This document shows, piece by piece, positions 7,402 to 19,660 of a stretch of DNA of 42,963 bases. The position numbers were made by a program, and so were the translations under genes. The first letter of the stretch is position 1; each line of letters opens with the position of its first letter. The DNA is from a virus. Lineage: Duplodnaviria; Heunggongvirae; Uroviricota; Caudoviricetes. The notes beneath the pieces are model-generated. The model did not search any database, was not told the origin of the DNA, and saw only the letters and a list, made by a program, of their open reading frames with translations. The stretch spans positions 1 through 42,963 of IMG/VR virus record IMGVR_UViG_2698536570_000009. The stretch is one strand, 5' to 3'.

Positions 7402-7851
7402 TTACTTAATTAGTGAAGCTGCGTATTCGAGGAGATACAGTTTTGGGGCCAGCCAGATTTTTAGCCACGTCAGGTCAGATAAAACGACGAAGGCGATGAC
7501 CGAATACAGGAACATAATGGTGCCAAAAAACACTGAGGAAGCACTGATAGTGCCGTCTTTGTCCCAGACCAATGTAGGTCTATATTTTGGCTTTCCGCGT
7601 TCCCATGAATATCCCTCGTCGCCATAAACTCCGTCCTGCTCGCGCTTCATCATTACCCTGAAGAATTTAATCGCAACCGGGATAGTCGCCAGAATAACCA
7701 GCGTGAGCATCATGCTTTTGGTAAATTTCCATACCAGCAACTGATGCACAACTTCCGGAATCTGCGCCTGGCTAAATGACACCGCAGCATCGATGCCATT
7801 CGCCGCTTTCTGTAACAGCTCAACGAGAATTTTGTTCGCTTGGTCGTTCAT
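7402..7851 (-). CDS. inner-membrane protein with two TM helices; possible superinfection-exclusion-type protein
   Basis: 149 aa; SD 'GAGGG' 6 nt upstream; two hydrophobic segments ('MMLTLVILATIPVAIKFF', 'VFFGTIMFLYSVIAFVVL'); position left of the immunity region is where lambda carries sieB. Function is inferred from position only. Confidence 0.55.
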   Translation of the reverse strand: MNDQANKILVELLQKAANGIDAAVSFSQAQIPEVVHQLLVWKFTKSMMLTLVILATIPVAIKFFRVMMKREQDGVYGDEGYSWERGKPKYRPTLVWDKDGTISASSVFFGTIMFLYSVIAFVVLSDLTWLKIWLAPKLYLLEYAASLIK

Positions 7852-7871
7852 GATTACCCTCTGTAATTACC

Positions 7872-7899
7872 CGCAAAAAAGGCCGCCATCAGGCAGCCT
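7872..7899 (-). terminator. rho-independent terminator on minus strand (tL1-like position)
   Basis: On the minus strand a near-perfect 7-bp stem (GGCTGCC / GGCGGCC, one mismatch) is followed by T6; lies between the N-position ORF and the membrane-protein gene. Confidence 0.5.
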
Positions 7900-7976
7900 C
7901 AGCTTGAATTAGTGCCGGGATTTTTAGCCACGCCCGGCGCGTGGTTTCCCGCTATTCCCCAACAGCAAGAAATCGC

Positions 7977-8318
7977 TTACTCTTTAATCTCCCCAACAGT
8001 AGAAAGGATATATTCATGCAAACCATGCGGACCGTGTGCCCTGACTGTGGAAGTGAGATGTTCAACCAGCCCGATGATTTTGACTTTGAGACAAATTTCA
8101 CCGGCGTCAGTTGTGCTGACTGTGGTCGCGAAATCACTAAGGACGATGTTGTCAATCAGGCCACGGACACGGTCAAAAAACAGCTCGACGACATGCTCAG
8201 GAATTCCCTCAAAGGAACTGGCTGGAAGTTCGACTAATTTCAAAAGCTCCCCGAACTGAGTAAGTACCTCGCTGGCGTCTACGTTAAGCAGTAGTGGCGC
8301 CGTTTTTTTATCTGCCAT
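7977..8318 (-). CDS. hypothetical acidic protein (113 aa) at the N-gene position of the pL operon; mutually exclusive with 8016..8237
   Basis: Strong SD 'GAGGAG' 5 nt before ATG (8316-8318); followed by the minus-strand terminator at 7872..7899. No Arg-rich motif, so not a classical N. Confidence 0.35.
   Translation of the reverse strand: MADKKTAPLLLNVDASEVLTQFGELLKLVELPASSFEGIPEHVVELFFDRVRGLIDNIVLSDFATTVSTTDAGEICLKVKIIGLVEHLTSTVRAHGPHGLHEYILSTVGEIKE
8016..8237 (+). CDS. small zinc-ribbon protein (73 aa, CPDCG...CADCG); mutually exclusive with 7977..8318
   Basis: Two CxDCG motifs 26 residues apart; SD 'AAGGA' about 8 nt upstream of ATG; codon usage looks typical. Fully antisense to the minus-strand ORF. 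Confidence 0.45.
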   Translation: MQTMRTVCPDCGSEMFNQPDDFDFETNFTGVSCADCGREITKDDVVNQATDTVKKQLDDMLRNSLKGTGWKFD

Positions 8319-8845
8319 ACACACTCCTCTTTTTGTTTACCGTCAGCCCCTCGCAAAGAGCTGCTGGTAAACTTCGCCACACTCTCGCAGTGGCCGCGCA
8401 CATGCCCTTGAGACCTTGTCGCTCATCGCCGCTCATAACCGGTGCGCGTCTGGCGTTCGCGCTGCTTTACCGGAGCTTGTTTTGATATAAGAACCTTGAC
8501 CCATCACTACACAGGCTCGCCATTCGGCGACTCAGGGCGGCATCATTACTGCTGCATTGCCTTTAGGCTGCGGTCTGTCCGCTTTAGTGCTTCATTGGAA
8601 TCACTCCTCTAATTTGATGGTTTATTTTTTTACCCTGCATCCGACATTGTCCGCCGCTTGCCCGTCGTGCCATTTTATGAACCTACCCCCATGAGGGCTG
8701 GGAATCGCCGGGGAACTGAGTTATGCGAATCTCTTCGCTCAACCTCGGATGCAATTTCTGATTTGTTAAAGAAGCAGGCGACTTGCTGTCCGCCGCTGGC
8801 TAACTTCGCTCAGCTGTCGATGTTTCGTTTCGATGAGTCAAAGAT

Positions 8846-8914
8846 ACAGATAAAACTGTATTTCCGTCAACAGACAAAACTGTAATTTGCGTTGTAATTT
8901 ACACATGTATCTGT
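8846..8914. promoter_or_regulatory. OL operator cluster (pL region): two clear plus one degenerate 14-bp ACAG-N6-CTGT site
   Basis: 'ACAGATAAAACTGT' (8846-8859), 'ACAGACAAAACTGT' (8870-8883), degenerate 'ACACATGTATCTGT' (8901-8914); same motif family as the three OR sites. Confidence 0.6.
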
Positions 8915-8944
8915 AATAGAAGGTTATTTATTTTTGTTGAGGCG

Positions 8945-8973
8945 AAAAAAAACCGGCAAATGCCGGTTTATTT
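8945..8973. terminator. bidirectional rho-independent terminator downstream of cI
   Basis: A8 - CCGGC AAAT GCCGG - TTTATTT: hairpin flanked by an A-run on one side and a T-run on the other. Confidence 0.7.
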
Positions 8974-8989
8974 GGATGGGGTAGGATGG

Positions 8990-9622
8990 TTAGCGCTTTC
9001 TGCGGTAAATTCGGTGCTCAATCATCACGCCGATGATAGTTAAATGCTGATGATCGCTATTGATAACCGGGTAATCATTATTGAGGGGGACAAGTTCGAA
9101 ATGCTGTCTTCCGTTATTGTCCGTATAAGTTGGACGATATTTTTTGAATGTCGCCTGATCTCCGCCGTTTTTGGCAACAACAAATTCACCAGGAGCGGGC
9201 TCAATCTCTGGATCAACAATAATCACATCGCCAGCTTTAAAATCAGGCTCCATCGAGTCGCCCTCAATACGCAAGGCAAAGCTGTGTTCTGATAAATCAA
9301 GATCAGTAAGAATGTATTCAAGACTGCCATCAAACGCCTCTATCGGGCTTTTTTCTGCAAGTGCCCCTGCTTGCACATAGCTTATCAACGGAACTCTCCT
9401 GCTGTTCACTTCTGCCAACGGCATAAATGCGCCGCCATTCATCAGCCAGTCTGCATCGCAGCGCAATGCTTTAGCTATGCCGATTATATTACGCGGCTTA
9501 AGCGTTTTCCCATCCTCAATGCTTTGCCAGGATTGCTGACGAATACCAGCCTTTTCTGCTGCTTCTGTTTGCGTCAGGCCAAGTTCAATCCTTTTCTGTT
9601 TTACGCGATCTGCAAGGCTCAT
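8990..9622 (-). CDS. cI: cI-type repressor (N-terminal XRE-family HTH plus C-terminal LexA-like S24 peptidase domain)
   Basis: 210 aa; HTH 'LGLTQTEAAEKAGIRQQSWQSIEDG'; C-terminal self-cleavage-domain blocks 'IEGDSMEPDFKAGDVIIVDP' and '...ATFKKY'; divergent from cro across the OR operators. Confidence 0.9.
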   Translation of the reverse strand: MSLADRVKQKRIELGLTQTEAAEKAGIRQQSWQSIEDGKTLKPRNIIGIAKALRCDADWLMNGGAFMPLAEVNSRRVPLISYVQAGALAEKSPIEAFDGSLEYILTDLDLSEHSFALRIEGDSMEPDFKAGDVIIVDPEIEPAPGEFVVAKNGGDQATFKKYRPTYTDNNGRQHFELVPLNNDYPVINSDHQHLTIIGVMIEHRIYRRKR

Positions 9623-9651: not shown

Positions 9652-9711
9652 CACAGCAAAAACTGTATTTGACAAACAGAAATAGCTGTCAGAGAATACA
9701 GATAAAACTGT
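9652..9711. promoter_or_regulatory. OR operator cluster (OR1-3) with pR/pRM; candidate pR -35 TTGACA at 9669-9674
   Basis: Three 14-bp sites 'ACAGCAAAAACTGT' (9652-9665), 'ACAGAAATAGCTGT' (9676-9689), 'ACAGATAAAACTGT' (9698-9711) between cI start (9622) and cro start (9721); SD GGAGGG precedes cro. Confidence 0.7.
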
Positions 9712-11143: not shown

Positions 11144-11998
11144 ATGGAGCTGCTCGAAAAAATCGACGCTATCGAAAAAATGCTGGAAGTTCTCGGCAGG
11201 CCGCCAGAGCAACTCCCTAACTGCGAGACCGTCTTCGAAACGGTGCTTTGCGAGAAACACGGCGAATACGAACAGCGTAAACGCGTGCTTACCAGCAGCC
11301 TAATCAAGCTGCCGTCGCCGCCGACTCGTTGTCCGGGCTGCCTTCGCGATGAGCTGAGCTTCCTGTATGACGAGAAAAAGCGTTGGGAAGACCGCACTCG
11401 CCAGCAGAACATCGATCGCCTGCTGCGTCAGCTCGAAATCCCTGAGCGCTTTGTGACGTGCACGCTGGAAAACTATCAGCCGGTTGGCAAGGAGTCAGAA
11501 CGTGCGCTGCGGGTTTGTCAGGCGTATGCCGCGAAGTGGCCCGAGCGGCTGAAGCAGGGAGGTGGTCTGGTGATGTGCGGCAAGCCGGGAACCGGTAAAA
11601 ACCACCTTGCCCTGGCGATCGCCCGTGATGTCATCGAGAAACACCAGAGCCCGGTAATTTTTACCACCGCGCTGAAGATTGCCCGTGAGTTCAAATCAAC
11701 GTGGTCGAAAACTGCGACGCGCAGCGAGAACGACGTGATTGCGCACTTCACCACTCCGGACCTTTTGATCATCGACGAGGTTGGCGTCCAGTTCGGCAGC
11801 GAGGCCGAGAAGCTGATCATGTTCGAAATCATCAACACCCGGTACGAGCGGATGAAGCCGACCATCCTGATCAGCAACCAGACCAAAGAAGAGTTGGCAG
11901 CGTTCGTGAGTGAGCGTGTTATTGACCGCATGAGCGACGGCGGCGGGTGCACGCTGTCATTCACCTGGGATTCTTACCGTTCCAAGGGGGCAGCATGA
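11144..11998 (+). CDS. DnaC/IstB-like AAA+ helicase loader (lambda P functional analogue)
   Basis: Walker A 'GKPGTGKNHLALAIA', Walker B 'LLIIDEVG'; start ATG 11144 with SD GAGGGA just after the O stop. Confidence 0.8.
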   Translation: MELLEKIDAIEKMLEVLGRPPEQLPNCETVFETVLCEKHGEYEQRKRVLTSSLIKLPSPPTRCPGCLRDELSFLYDEKKRWEDRTRQQNIDRLLRQLEIPERFVTCTLENYQPVGKESERALRVCQAYAAKWPERLKQGGGLVMCGKPGTGKNHLALAIARDVIEKHQSPVIFTTALKIAREFKSTWSKTATRSENDVIAHFTTPDLLIIDEVGVQFGSEAEKLIMFEIINTRYERMKPTILISNQTKEELAAFVSERVIDRMSDGGGCTLSFTWDSYRSKGAA

Positions 11999-19506: not shown

Positions 19507-19581
19507 GGGTCAGTCGTATAAAGGTCATTACGGAAGGCTGTTAACCTTCTTATCGTGGTTCGAGTCCACGCTGTCCCGCCA
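19507..19581 (+). tRNA. tRNA-like gene, Asn(GUU)-like anticodon arm, non-canonical 5' half (possible pseudo-tRNA)
   Basis: 3' half is canonical (T-arm CGTGG-TTCGAGT-CCACG, acceptor plus GCCA); anticodon stem-loop GAAGG-CUGUUAA-CCTTC; acceptor stem has one T-T mismatch and the D-stem is weak. Confidence 0.45.
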
Positions 19582-19584
19582 AAT

Positions 19585-19660
19585 TCGCCTGTAGCTCAGA
19601 GGAAAGAGCAACCGCCTTCTAAGCGGTTGGTCGCTGGTTCGAATCCAGCCAGACGAGCCA
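19585..19660 (+). tRNA. tRNA-Arg (anticodon UCU)
   Basis: Cloverleaf: D-arm GCTC-AGAGGAAA-GAGC, anticodon arm ACCGC-CTTCTAA-GCGGT, T-arm GCTGG-TTCGAAT-CCAGC, 3' CCA; one C-A mismatch in the acceptor stem. Confidence 0.7.

What the first reader, a model, noticed from the sequence alone, without database searches (positions are those of the whole stretch)
7872..8324. Two well-supported ORFs fully antisense to each other at the N-gene position downstream of pL
The minus-strand ORF (7977..8318, 113 aa, acidic) has a strong SD (GAGGAG) and is followed by a minus-strand terminator at 7872..7899, which is the lambda N-tL1 arrangement, but it lacks any Arg-rich motif. The plus-strand ORF (8016..8237, 73 aa) has an SD and two CxDCG zinc-ribbon motifs. 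Only one is likely to be real. If the plus gene is real, it is a convergent zinc-ribbon moron embedded in the pL operon; if the minus gene is real, the antitermination function here is not a classical N.
Basis: seen in the sequence. Interest (0 to 1): 0.5.

Follow-up and report, generated by a model that had tools for sequence, protein, structure and literature searches.

The report
Two conserved genes on opposite strands
The same ~340 bp of this E. coli prophage, just downstream of the early-left promoter, seems to encode two conserved proteins, one on each strand and read from exactly complementary codons, so the answer to "which ORF is real" is probably "both", which is rare in bacteria and phages.

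Summary
The window is a lambdoid prophage of E. coli AW1.7. The minus ORF (7977-8318) is the first ORF downstream of a repressor-controlled pL and is followed by a conserved intrinsic terminator. The plus ORF (8016-8237) is a two-knuckle zinc ribbon.

The plus ORF is certainly coding. It passes the curated NCBIfam ECs_2282 model, and substitutions in the overlap fall 158/29/55 on its codon positions 3/2/1.

The minus ORF (HK639 gp45 homologue) is probably coding too.
- Both frames stay open, in the same exact codon-complement register, in 78 related viral contigs and about seven deeper lineages, in three genomic contexts.
- Its 27 N-terminal codons lie outside the plus gene. They show minus-frame periodicity and dN/dS of about 0.4-0.5, and carry the family's only invariant residue.
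- A Shine-Dalgarno sequence and a start codon (ATG; GTG in one) precede it in all eleven lineages checked.
- Plus-synonymous changes are biased toward conservative minus-frame replacements; four control genes show no such bias.

The minus protein is not N. HK639 carries a putL antiterminator RNA at this position, but this window lacks it. No expression data exist and the functions are unknown. Public annotation records one strand or the other, never both.

The parts
8016..8237 (+). Plus gene: 73-aa C4 zinc-ribbon protein (CPDCG...CADCG), ECs_2282 family. It lies wholly inside the minus ORF, on the antisense strand.
   Evidence: NCBIfam NF047912 scores 83.4 bits against a cutoff of 37, matching residues 7-63. 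PHROG 4852 gives 2.6e-8. Substitution steps at plus codon positions 3/2/1 are 158/29/55 and plus dN/dS is about 0.15. All four Cys codons change only synonymously. RefSeq annotates it, but from 8058, which cuts off the first zinc knuckle.
7977..8318 (-). Minus gene: 113-aa acidic protein, homologue of HK639 gp45, and the first ORF of the pL operon.
   Evidence: 95% identical to HK639_45. The frame is open at 113 or 116 codons in all 78 loci and in the deeper lineages. A profile search finds 32 clusters at 50% identity. AlphaFold2 gives pLDDT 79 and pTM 0.63, with no fold match.
8238..8318 (-). The N-terminal 27 codons of the minus gene, which lie outside the plus ORF (motif AP-L-x-L-x-V-DASE).
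   Evidence: Steps at minus positions 1/2/3 are 60/42/92, chi-square p = 5e-5. Minus dN/dS is about 0.4-0.5, with synonymous excess p = 0.008 for transitions and 4e-4 for transversions. There are no indels. D14 is the only invariant column of the deep family alignment.
8325..8330 (-). Shine-Dalgarno sequence GAGGAG of the minus gene.
   Evidence: A GAGG/GGAG/GGGG motif lies 5-9 nt before the start codon in all 11 lineage representatives, although their upstream sequences are otherwise unrelated.
7872..7899 (-). Intrinsic terminator ending the first pL transcription unit (a tL1 analogue).
   Evidence: Hairpin plus U6. Present with compensatory stem changes in L066, L070, L075 and L076.
7913..7950 (.). 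Conserved pair of overlapping hairpins (CCACGC/GCGTGG and GCCGGG/CCCGGC) between the minus stop codon and the terminator, i.e. upstream of the plus gene.
   Evidence: Both helices covary between lineages (GCCGGG/CCCGGC, GCCTG/CAGGC, GCCCGG/CCGGGC). The element is also present in Edwardsiella phage Edno5. Weak Rfam isrK similarity, 19 bits, E = 0.16. The functional strand is unknown.
7955..8007 (+). Conserved 5' control region of the plus gene: direct repeats TCCCCAACAG (7956-7965 and 7990-7999), a candidate promoter TTCCCC-17-TACTCT (7955-7960 / 7978-7983), and SD AGGA (8004-8007).
   Evidence: The architecture is conserved in 15 lineages. The two repeats change together (CCACAGTCAA in L084/L087/L090, CCCCAATAG in L088), and a TAnnnT hexamer keeps its aligned position. 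The consensus scanner did not call this promoter, so its function is inferred.
8841..8870 (-). The pL promoter (TTGACG-18-TATCTT), lying within three repressor operators (8846-8914).
8336..8371 (-). Leader hairpin immediately 5' of the minus SD.
   Evidence: Conserved in almost all related loci, whatever their leader type. It folds. It forms the 3' part of the feature annotated 'putL-like antiterminator RNA' in HK639.

Best explanation
This is a bidirectionally coding cassette in which both strands encode a protein.

The minus-strand gene (HK639 gp45 homologue) is the first gene of the repressor-controlled pL early-left operon. After induction it is transcribed across a 515-nt leader and translated from its own SD and ATG. 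That transcription unit ends at the intrinsic terminator at 7872-7899 unless RNA polymerase has been made terminator-resistant.

The plus-strand gene lies wholly inside the minus gene. It is read from the exact reverse-complement codons and encodes a 73-aa C4 zinc-ribbon protein of the ECs_2282 family. It has its own conserved 5' control region (7913-8015).

The two genes are convergent and their mRNAs are fully complementary. I therefore infer that their expression is mutually exclusive: the zinc-ribbon gene in the lysogen, when pL is repressed, and the minus gene once pL fires. This would work through transcriptional interference and RNA duplex formation.

Shown here: both reading frames, their translation signals and their register are conserved, and there are signs of purifying selection on both.

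Inferred only: expression timing, mutual exclusion, and the biochemical functions of both proteins, which remain unknown. The minus protein is not an N-type antiterminator.
For: Plus gene is real:
- NF047912 scores 83 bits against a cutoff of 37.
- Substitution steps at plus codon positions 3/2/1 are 158/29/55, chi-square p about 1e-25.
- The same pattern holds between the 8 cluster representatives: 0.373/0.112/0.171 differences per site.
- Cys codons change only synonymously.

Minus gene is real:
1. It is open at 113 or 116 codons in all 78 IMG/VR loci. It is also open, in the same register, in Edno5, KP12, Klebsiella phage 2b, Escherichia sp., Kluyvera, Yersinia and one further viral contig. 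Given each plus protein and this window's codon usage, the joint chance of no TTA/CTA/TCA codon is about 1e-8 for 15 lineages treated as independent, and about 7e-7 for the 11 most divergent. 20 of 26 plus-frame Leu codons are CTC, against a 15% background.
2. The 27 codons outside the overlap show minus-frame periodicity (60/42/92, p = 5e-5) and dN/dS of about 0.4-0.5. They have no indels and hold the family's only invariant residue.
3. An SD and a start codon (ATG; GTG in L067) are conserved in front of it in otherwise unrelated upstream sequences.
4. Plus-synonymous substitutions in the overlap cause more conservative minus-frame replacements than the set of possible ones. With unique events, P = 0.001-0.003 for transitions and 0.003-0.014 for transversions. 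The same test on the antisense frames of four control genes, and on the reverse frame of the non-overlapping part, gave P = 0.03-0.95, with one of ten below 0.05.
5. Plus third-position divergence in the overlap (0.373) is lower than minus third-position divergence in the non-overlapping part (0.537).
6. AlphaFold2 gives pLDDT 79.
7. The minus ORF is co-oriented with its host operon in all three genomic contexts.

Plus gene has its own control region: conserved and co-varying direct repeats plus a TAnnnT hexamer.

Precedent: in phage Fc02, a lysogen-expressed gene and an early-lytic gene overlap on opposite strands (PMC9936078).
Against: - There is no transcript, ribosome-profiling or peptide evidence for either ORF.
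- This exact-complement register is the one in which conserved shadow ORFs arise most easily.
- By tree-based counts, plus-synonymous sites in the overlap evolve about as fast as minus-synonymous sites in the non-overlapping part: 1.51 against 1.51 per transition opportunity, and 0.65 against 0.77 for transversions. Any constraint from the minus protein inside the overlap is therefore weak.
- The naive minus dN/dS in the overlap is about 1.
- The rate contrast between changes synonymous in both frames and those synonymous in plus only rests on 18 events (p = 0.017 and 0.22).
- The joint openness probabilities assume independent lineages, which overstates significance.
- Only 2 of 5 AlphaFold models of the minus protein are confident, from a 17-sequence alignment. 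The plus model is poor (pLDDT 58).
- The minus protein has no known fold or family.
- The candidate plus promoter is weak (3/6 + 3/6) and the scanner did not call it.
- RefSeq's curated pipeline annotates only the plus gene.
Confidence: 0.6

Rival explanations
1. Only the plus zinc-ribbon gene is real. The minus ORF is a conserved shadow of it in the exact-complement register, extended by chance or by non-coding constraint. It has been mis-annotated in HK639, Edno5, KP12 and many older genome records.
For: - The plus frame dominates the substitution pattern in the overlap.
- The naive minus dN/dS in the overlap is about 1.
- Plus-synonymous rates in the overlap are close to the neutral benchmark.
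- In a single genome the minus frame would be open by chance with P of about 0.2-0.6.
- Current RefSeq annotation keeps only the plus gene.
- The minus protein has no family or fold relatives.
Against: This does not explain the following.
- The 27-codon extension beyond the plus stop codon has minus-frame periodicity, dN/dS below 1, no indels and an invariant Asp.
- An SD and a start codon sit in front of the ORF in 11 of 11 lineages with unrelated upstream DNA.
- TTA/CTA/TCA codons are absent from the plus frame in about 15 lineages, and Leu codons are heavily biased to CTC.
- Induced minus-frame replacements are biased toward conservative changes, and the controls show no such bias.
Confidence: 0.3
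2. Only the minus gene is real, as annotated in HK639 (gp45). The plus zinc-ribbon ORF is the shadow.
For: - It is the longer ORF.
- It is co-oriented with the operon in every context.
- It has a strong SD.
- Its AlphaFold confidence is higher than that of the plus ORF.
Against: - In the overlap, minus position 1 takes 158 steps against 55 at minus position 3. No single-gene model for the minus strand produces this.
- All four Cys of the two CxxCG knuckles are kept, while the opposite minus residues toggle between Thr and Ala.
- The plus ORF passes a curated HMM.
- The plus frame would need about 20 minus-frame Leu/Ser codons per lineage to avoid TTA/CTA/TCA.
- The plus gene has a conserved upstream region of its own.
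Confidence: 0.03
3. The minus ORF is translated, but only the act of translation or its N-terminal segment matters. For example, translation might keep the long pL transcript from Rho-dependent termination, or tune the antisense plus gene. The C-terminal 86 residues would be an unselected passenger sequence.
For: - The clear coding signature lies in codons 1-27, while constraint in the overlap is weak.
- The 515-nt untranslated leader precedes the ORF.
Against: - The stop codon position and length (113 or 116 codons) are conserved.
- The frame is kept open through the whole overlap in all lineages.
- Replacements within the overlap are biased toward conservative changes.
- AlphaFold packs the N-terminal strand and helix against the rest of the protein.
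Confidence: 0.07

Closest known systems
Antisense overlapping gene pair olg1 / gene 10 of Pseudomonas phage Fc02 (PMC9936078)
   Same: In a temperate phage, right beside the immunity region, a gene on the repressor strand that is expressed in the lysogen overlaps, on the opposite strand, an early gene of the lytic operon. Both are reported to be functional, in superinfection exclusion.
   Different: There is no sequence relationship, and the phage type (Mu/B3-like) and host differ. Expression and phenotype were measured for Fc02 and not here. I did not compare register or depth of conservation.
Embedded antisense overlapping genes reported in E. coli O157:H7 and Pseudomonas aeruginosa (PMC9927249, PMC8850804; review PMC7457138)
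   Same: A protein-coding ORF lies fully inside another gene on the opposite strand, and the case is argued from conservation and selection tests.
   Different: Those cases rest on ribosome profiling. By my recollection they are mostly young and taxonomically narrow. Here there are no expression data, but both frames persist across Escherichia, Enterobacter, Klebsiella, Kluyvera, Yersinia and Edwardsiella phages and across three genomic contexts.
Lambda pL - nutL - N - tL1 arrangement
   Same: A repressor-controlled leftward promoter, a first small ORF, then an intrinsic terminator before the recombination genes.
   Different: The ORF product is acidic, has no Arg-rich motif and no N homology. 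No boxA/boxB-type element was identified. The gene carries a second gene on its opposite strand.
HK022 / HK639 put antiterminator RNA (HK639 GenBank annotation; PMC9378689)
   Same: In HK639 and about 25 of the 80 related viral loci, a putL core lies between pL and this same gene. That core shares a 90%-identical 30-nt stretch with HK022 putL. The window shares the start of the transcript and the hairpin just before the gene.
   Different: In the window the roughly 72-nt two-stem put core is replaced by about 400 nt of other sequence. A covariance model of put finds nothing significant in the window (best hit 10.6 bits, E = 0.16, elsewhere).
Small CxxCG...CxxCG zinc ribbons (MqsA/YgiT N-terminal finger, Lar, TFIIB-type ribbon)
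   Same: Two CxxCG knuckles about 20 residues apart, with weak profile matches (E = 5e-4 to 7e-3).
   Different: All of these matches fall below the family cutoffs. Only the ECs_2282 model is passed, and no function follows from it.

Membership tests
NCBIfam NF047912, ECs_2282 family putative zinc-binding protein (plus ORF) | Whole-protein HMM score at or above the curated cutoff of 37 bits | tested here: met
   83.4 bits, E = 7.6e-24, residues 7-63 on profile positions 4-60 of 60.
NCBIfam NF047912, ECs_2282 family putative zinc-binding protein (plus ORF) | Two CxxC(G) zinc knuckles conserved across members | tested here: met
   CPDCG and CADCG are present. C33, C36 and G37 are invariant, and C8, P9, D10, C11 and G12 are invariant or nearly so. 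The knuckles are kept in all 15 lineages.
HK639 gp45 family (minus ORF) | Full-length similarity to HK639_45 at the same position downstream of pL | tested here: met
   95% identity over 113 aa, with the same flanking gene.
Lambda N-type antiterminator protein | N-terminal arginine-rich motif, basic protein | tested here: not met
   pI 4.99, with 3 Arg in 113 aa, none of them clustered.
Lambda N-type antiterminator protein | Sequence-family membership | tested here: not met
   No Pfam or NCBIfam hit at E <= 1. The only PHROG hit is an unannotated family at E = 0.003.
Lambda N-type antiterminator protein | A nut site (boxA plus boxB hairpin) between the promoter and the gene | not tested
   No dedicated nut search was run. 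Rfam at a permissive threshold found nothing relevant in 7800-9000.
put antiterminator RNA (HK022 putL/putR, HK639 putL) | A two-stem element of about 70 nt matching the put consensus, downstream of an early promoter | tested here: not met
   A covariance model built from 5 put sequences, run with filters off, gave a best window hit of 10.6 bits, E = 0.16, at 11518-11601 (+), and nothing in the pL leader. Motif searches were negative. BLAST finds the core in about 25 related loci but not in the window.
Antisense overlapping (dual-coding) gene pair | Both ORFs intact across divergent homologues, more often than one-frame selection predicts | tested here: met
   78 of 78 loci and about 7 deeper lineages. 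Joint P is about 1e-8 to 7e-7 under independence.
Antisense overlapping (dual-coding) gene pair | Purifying selection demonstrable on each frame | tested here: inconclusive
   For plus it is clear: dN/dS about 0.15. For minus it is clear in the non-overlapping 27 codons (dN/dS about 0.4-0.5, p = 0.008 and 4e-4). Inside the overlap it is only indirect: the conservative-replacement bias (P about 0.001-0.014) and reduced third-position divergence, while rate-based contrasts are weak.
Antisense overlapping (dual-coding) gene pair | Independent translation-initiation signals for both ORFs | tested here: met
   An SD and a start codon are conserved before each ORF in all lineages checked.
Antisense overlapping (dual-coding) gene pair | Both products expressed | not testable with these tools
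   No RNA-seq, ribosome-profiling or proteomic data are available here. A literature search for ECs_2282 found nothing.
Intrinsic (Rho-independent) terminator | GC-rich hairpin followed by a U-run, conserved with compensatory changes | tested here: met
   The consensus scanner did not list it.

The most novel reading that the evidence does not exclude
This would be an old, mobile dual-coding cassette of enterobacterial temperate phages. Two functional proteins are written in exactly complementary codons of the same DNA. The antisense layout itself would be the regulatory device. The zinc-ribbon protein is made only while the host operon (here pL) is silent, and the acidic protein only when that operon fires. 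This forms a self-contained lysogeny/lytic toggle, or a two-component exclusion- or toxin-antitoxin-like pair. The co-evolving direct repeats upstream of the zinc-ribbon gene would be its autoregulatory sites.
Probability: 0.25. Interest if true: 0.85.

Novelty: new variant of a known kind. Interest (0 to 1): 0.62.

Why it matters
Well-supported cases of long antisense overlapping protein genes in bacteria and phages are few and disputed. Annotation pipelines forbid them by rule. Here, public records annotate the minus ORF in some genomes and the plus ORF in others, never both.

This pair is unusual for three reasons. Both frames persist across several genera and three genomic contexts. The register is the exact codon complement. 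The pair sits at the switch point of a temperate phage, directly behind pL.

The locus is also easy to test. Single synonymous changes in one frame create stop codons in the other, so the two genes can be knocked out separately in HK639 or in an AW1.7 lysogen.

If both are functional, the locus gives a clean model for two questions: how two proteins co-evolve on one DNA segment, and how convergent overlap enforces mutually exclusive expression. If only the zinc-ribbon gene is real, the result still settles an annotation conflict that affects hundreds of records. It also shows that the plus gene's start in RefSeq (8058) cuts off the first zinc knuckle.

Tried and rejected
- **Interrupted-frame test.** No informative case exists. 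A few frameshifted or deleted variants in metagenome proteins (P0016, P0020, P0021, P0043, P0045) break or rearrange both frames and may be errors.
- **Genome collection scans.** The scan with the minus alignment gave no confirmed locus. The scan with the plus alignment gave 4 true and 2 spurious loci. Three further viral scans with distant minus proteins gave one locus. The deep minus alignment was too divergent to scan with.
- **put RNA.** I expected it from the HK639 annotation, but it is not present in this window. The King 2011 paper on HK639 put is not held. What I say about HK639 antitermination rests on the GenBank feature and on my memory of that paper.
- **Rfam.** Only two tRNAs were found elsewhere in the window. 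In the region there was a sub-threshold isrK match.
- **Defence-system profiles.** Only a weak hit of the plus ORF to candidate PDC-M14A, E = 1e-5.
- **ECs_2282 itself.** Neither the literature nor a DNA search in E. coli genomes located its own context.
- **Naive dN/dS for the minus frame in the overlap.** Rejected as uninformative, because it is confounded by the plus frame.
- **Recurrent events in the replacement test.** The first version of the conservative-replacement test counted recurrent events, and one Ala/Ser site contributed 16 steps. I redid it with unique events.
Full report
**Where we are**

The window is 100% identical to the chromosome of E. coli AW1.7 over the stretch I queried. 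The region is the immunity region of a lambdoid prophage.
- A LexA/S24-type repressor gene lies at 8990-9622 (-).
- A cro-like gene and a CII-family gene follow on the plus strand.
- The operator ACAG-N6-CTGT occurs three times at 8846-8914 and three times at 9653-9711.
- A TTGACG-18-TATCTT promoter at 8870..8841 (-) sits among the left operators. This is pL.

**The observation**

All stated features are present.
- The minus ORF is 7977-8318, 113 aa, pI 4.99, with GAGGAG 5 nt before the ATG.
- The plus ORF is 8016-8237, 73 aa, with CPDCG and CADCG motifs and an AGGA 8 nt before the ATG.
- The minus-strand hairpin plus U6 at 7872-7899 is there. It recurs with compensatory stem changes in relatives.

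The two ORFs use the same triplets, so every minus codon is the reverse complement of a plus codon. In this register the antisense frame is closed only by sense codons TTA, CTA and TCA, so shadow ORFs are common. With 3 Leu and 3 Ser in the plus protein, the minus frame would be open across the overlap by chance with P of about 0.38. The pair in one genome proves nothing; comparison between genomes is needed.

**What the databases say**

They disagree.
- HK639, 95-97% identical here, annotates the minus ORF as gp45, function 'unknown'. It places a 'putL-like antiterminator RNA' directly upstream.
- RefSeq annotates only the plus ORF, as 'ECs_2282 family putative zinc-binding protein'.
- The plus ORF scores 83.4 bits against NCBIfam NF047912, whose cutoff is 37.
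- The minus ORF has no Pfam or NCBIfam match.
- Both exact proteins exist in public collections under separate accessions.
- RefSeq starts the plus gene at 8058, which removes the first zinc knuckle. The HMM aligns from residue 7 of the 73-aa ORF, so 8016 is the better start.

**Comparative data**

I collected the following.
- 80 related viral contigs, with 100% to 49% minus-protein identity.
- Phage records for HK639, Edwardsiella phage Edno5, Klebsiella phages KP12 and 2b.
- Genomic loci from an Escherichia sp., Kluyvera and Yersinia, and one more viral contig.

In all 78 viral loci with a full-length match, both frames are open. The minus ORF is always 113 or 116 codons, the difference being a 9-nt in-frame insertion. 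In the deeper lineages (43-45% plus-protein identity for three of the phage records) both frames are again open and in the same exact-complement register.

In Edno5, KP12 and phage 2b the depositors annotated the minus ORF. The three contexts differ: a pL operon, a KilA/Rha region, and a tail-gene cluster. In each, the minus ORF runs with the surrounding operon and the zinc-ribbon ORF runs against it.

**The plus frame is coding**

- On a neighbour-joining tree of 56 distinct sequences, parsimony steps in the overlap fall 158/29/55 on plus codon positions 3/2/1 (chi-square p about 1e-25).
- Between the eight cluster representatives the mean differences per site are 0.373/0.112/0.171.
- Plus dN/dS is about 0.15.
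- A gene on the minus strand alone would show the opposite pattern.
- The four Cys codons change only synonymously, while the opposite minus residues switch between Thr and Ala.

**The minus frame is probably coding too**

*1. The part outside the overlap.* Codons 1-27 (8238-8318) lie beyond the plus stop codon.
- Steps fall 60/42/92 on minus positions 1/2/3 (p = 5e-5). Between representatives the values are 0.376/0.283/0.537.
- Synonymous changes are about twice as frequent per opportunity as non-synonymous ones (p = 0.008 for transitions, 4e-4 for transversions).
- There are no indels.
- A profile search of 1.84 billion representative proteins finds 32 clusters of this family. In their alignment the only invariant column is D14, in the motif AP-x-x-L-x-[IV]-D-A-S-E, which lies in this segment.
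- The nearly invariant L28 is the complement of the plus stop codon. The end of the plus ORF is therefore fixed across the family as well.

*2. Translation signals.* An SD-like GAGG/GGAG motif lies 5-9 nt before the start codon in all eleven lineage representatives. The start is ATG in ten and GTG in L067. The upstream DNA belongs to several unrelated leader types.

*3. Frame openness.* The plus frame contains no TTA, CTA or TCA in about 15 lineages.
- With this window's codon usage, the joint probability is about 1e-8, or 7e-7 for the 11 most divergent lineages. These figures treat lineages as independent, which overstates significance.
- 20 of 26 plus Leu codons in eight clusters are CTC, against 15% in the window's long ORFs. 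CTC is the complement of minus-frame Glu (GAG).

*4. Type of replacement.* Among substitutions that are synonymous in plus and change the minus protein, the observed minus replacements are more conservative (BLOSUM62) than the set of possible ones.
- Counting each site and change once, P = 0.001-0.003 for transitions and 0.003-0.014 for transversions.
- The same test on the complement frames of four neighbouring genes, and on the reverse frame of codons 1-27, gave ten P values between 0.03 and 0.95.

*5. Structure prediction.* AlphaFold2 folds the minus protein into a beta-alpha-alpha-beta-beta-alpha unit with pLDDT 79 and pTM 0.63. Only two of the five models are confident.

**What speaks against the minus frame**

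- Rate-based measures inside the overlap are weak. Plus-synonymous changes that alter the minus protein occur at 1.51 per transition opportunity. That equals the rate at minus-synonymous sites in codons 1-27.
- The excess of doubly synonymous changes rests on 18 events (p = 0.017 and 0.22).
- There are no expression data. A literature search for ECs_2282 found nothing.
- The zinc-ribbon model is poor, at pLDDT 58.

Weighing these, I put about 0.97 on the plus gene being real and about 0.65-0.7 on the minus gene being real. That gives 0.6 on the full dual-coding explanation.

**Control region of the plus gene**

The 110 nt upstream of the plus ATG are conserved in 15 lineages with a fixed architecture.
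- A pair of overlapping hairpins, whose helices covary (7913-7950).
- Two direct repeats 34 nt apart: TCCCCAACAG at 7956-7965 and 7990-7999.
- A TAnnnT hexamer between the repeats (TACTCT, 7978-7983), 17 nt after TTCCCC.
- The SD.

The two repeat copies change together between lineages: CCACAGTCAA in Edno5, Escherichia sp. and Yersinia, and CCCCAATAG in Kluyvera. That points to recognition by a co-evolving factor. Calling this a promoter is an inference, because the hexamers are weak and the scanner did not call them.

**Antitermination**

The minus protein is not N.

HK639 and about 25 of the 80 loci carry a two-stem put core between pL and this gene. Its best stretch is 90% identical to HK022 putL over 30 nt. 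According to PMC9378689, put RNA acts in cis on RNA polymerase through the beta-prime zinc-binding domain and needs no phage protein.

The window shares with HK639 the first roughly 45 nt of the transcript and the hairpin just before the SD (8336-8371). Between them it has about 400 nt of different sequence. A covariance model built from five put sequences finds nothing significant in the window.

At least three leader types occur in front of the same gene. The window's type contains two features shared with L075 and L076: a conserved element of about 100 nt (8362-8462) and a 3-codon mini-ORF behind a strong SD (8595-8584). L028 shares the element and L039 the mini-ORF. I could not tell whether either replaces put.

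**Comparison with known systems**

- The layout resembles lambda pL-N-tL1, but membership in the N family fails.
- The closest functional precedent I found is phage Fc02. There a lysogen-expressed gene and an early lytic gene overlap on opposite strands beside the repressor gene, and both act in exclusion (PMC9936078).
- Antisense overlapping genes as a class are known but contested (PMC7457138, PMC8850804, PMC9927249).

This pair differs in its exact-complement register, its breadth of conservation, and its position at the lysis-lysogeny switch.

**Verdict**

The interpretation that only one ORF is real is probably wrong. The zinc-ribbon gene is real, and the gp45-like gene is likely real as well. 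Function and expression remain untested.

Noticed in passing
window 8319-8835 (-); loci L001, L016, L020, L028, L039, L075, L076: The pL leader in front of this gene is mosaic. The same transcript start and the same final hairpin flank at least three unrelated inserts. One is the HK639 putL core, found in about 25 of the 80 loci. The window has a different insert of about 400 nt, and no put is detectable.
   Followed up: partly
window 8362-8462 (-): A conserved leader element of about 100 nt with three predicted hairpins, shared with L028, L075 and L076. Four base pairs show compensatory changes, but only four sequences were available. It could be a different antiterminator or regulatory RNA.
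   Followed up: partly
window 8584-8595 (-): A mini-ORF, ATG AAG CAC TAA, lies behind a GAGGAG Shine-Dalgarno sequence in the pL leader. It is kept as a 3-4-codon ORF followed by AGCGGA in L039, L075 and L076.
   Followed up: no
window 8336-8371 (-): A hairpin immediately 5' of the minus gene's SD is conserved in nearly all related loci, whatever the leader type. L076 has an apparently compensated variant. It forms the 3' part of HK639's annotated 'putL-like' feature, although it lies outside the HK022-like two-stem core.
   Followed up: partly
window 7956-7965 and 7990-7999 (+): The direct repeats TCCCCAACAG lie 34 nt apart upstream of the zinc-ribbon gene. Both copies change together in other lineages (CCACAGTCAA, CCCCAATAG), which suggests a co-evolving binding factor.
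   Followed up: partly
window 7876-7952 (-): Covarying overlapping hairpins plus the terminator give a sub-threshold Rfam match to the Salmonella Gifsy-1 sRNA IsrK (19 bits against a gathering score of 50, E = 0.16).
   Followed up: no
window 8058-8237 (+): RefSeq starts the zinc-ribbon gene at 8058 (59 aa), which removes the first CPDCG knuckle. Starts called for this protein in public records range from 58 to 150 aa.
   Followed up: yes
L001 2700-2790 (HK639, minus strand): Between gp45 and gp44, HK639 carries an insert resembling the 3' half of a tRNA (GGTTCGAATCC...CCACCA). The window lacks it.
   Followed up: no
window 19507-19657 (+): Two adjacent tRNA genes inside the prophage (Rfam 55 and 66 bits).
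   Followed up: no
window 11518-11601 (+): This is the best, non-significant match of the put covariance model (10.6 bits, E = 0.16). It lies downstream of the replication gene in the rightward operon.
   Followed up: no
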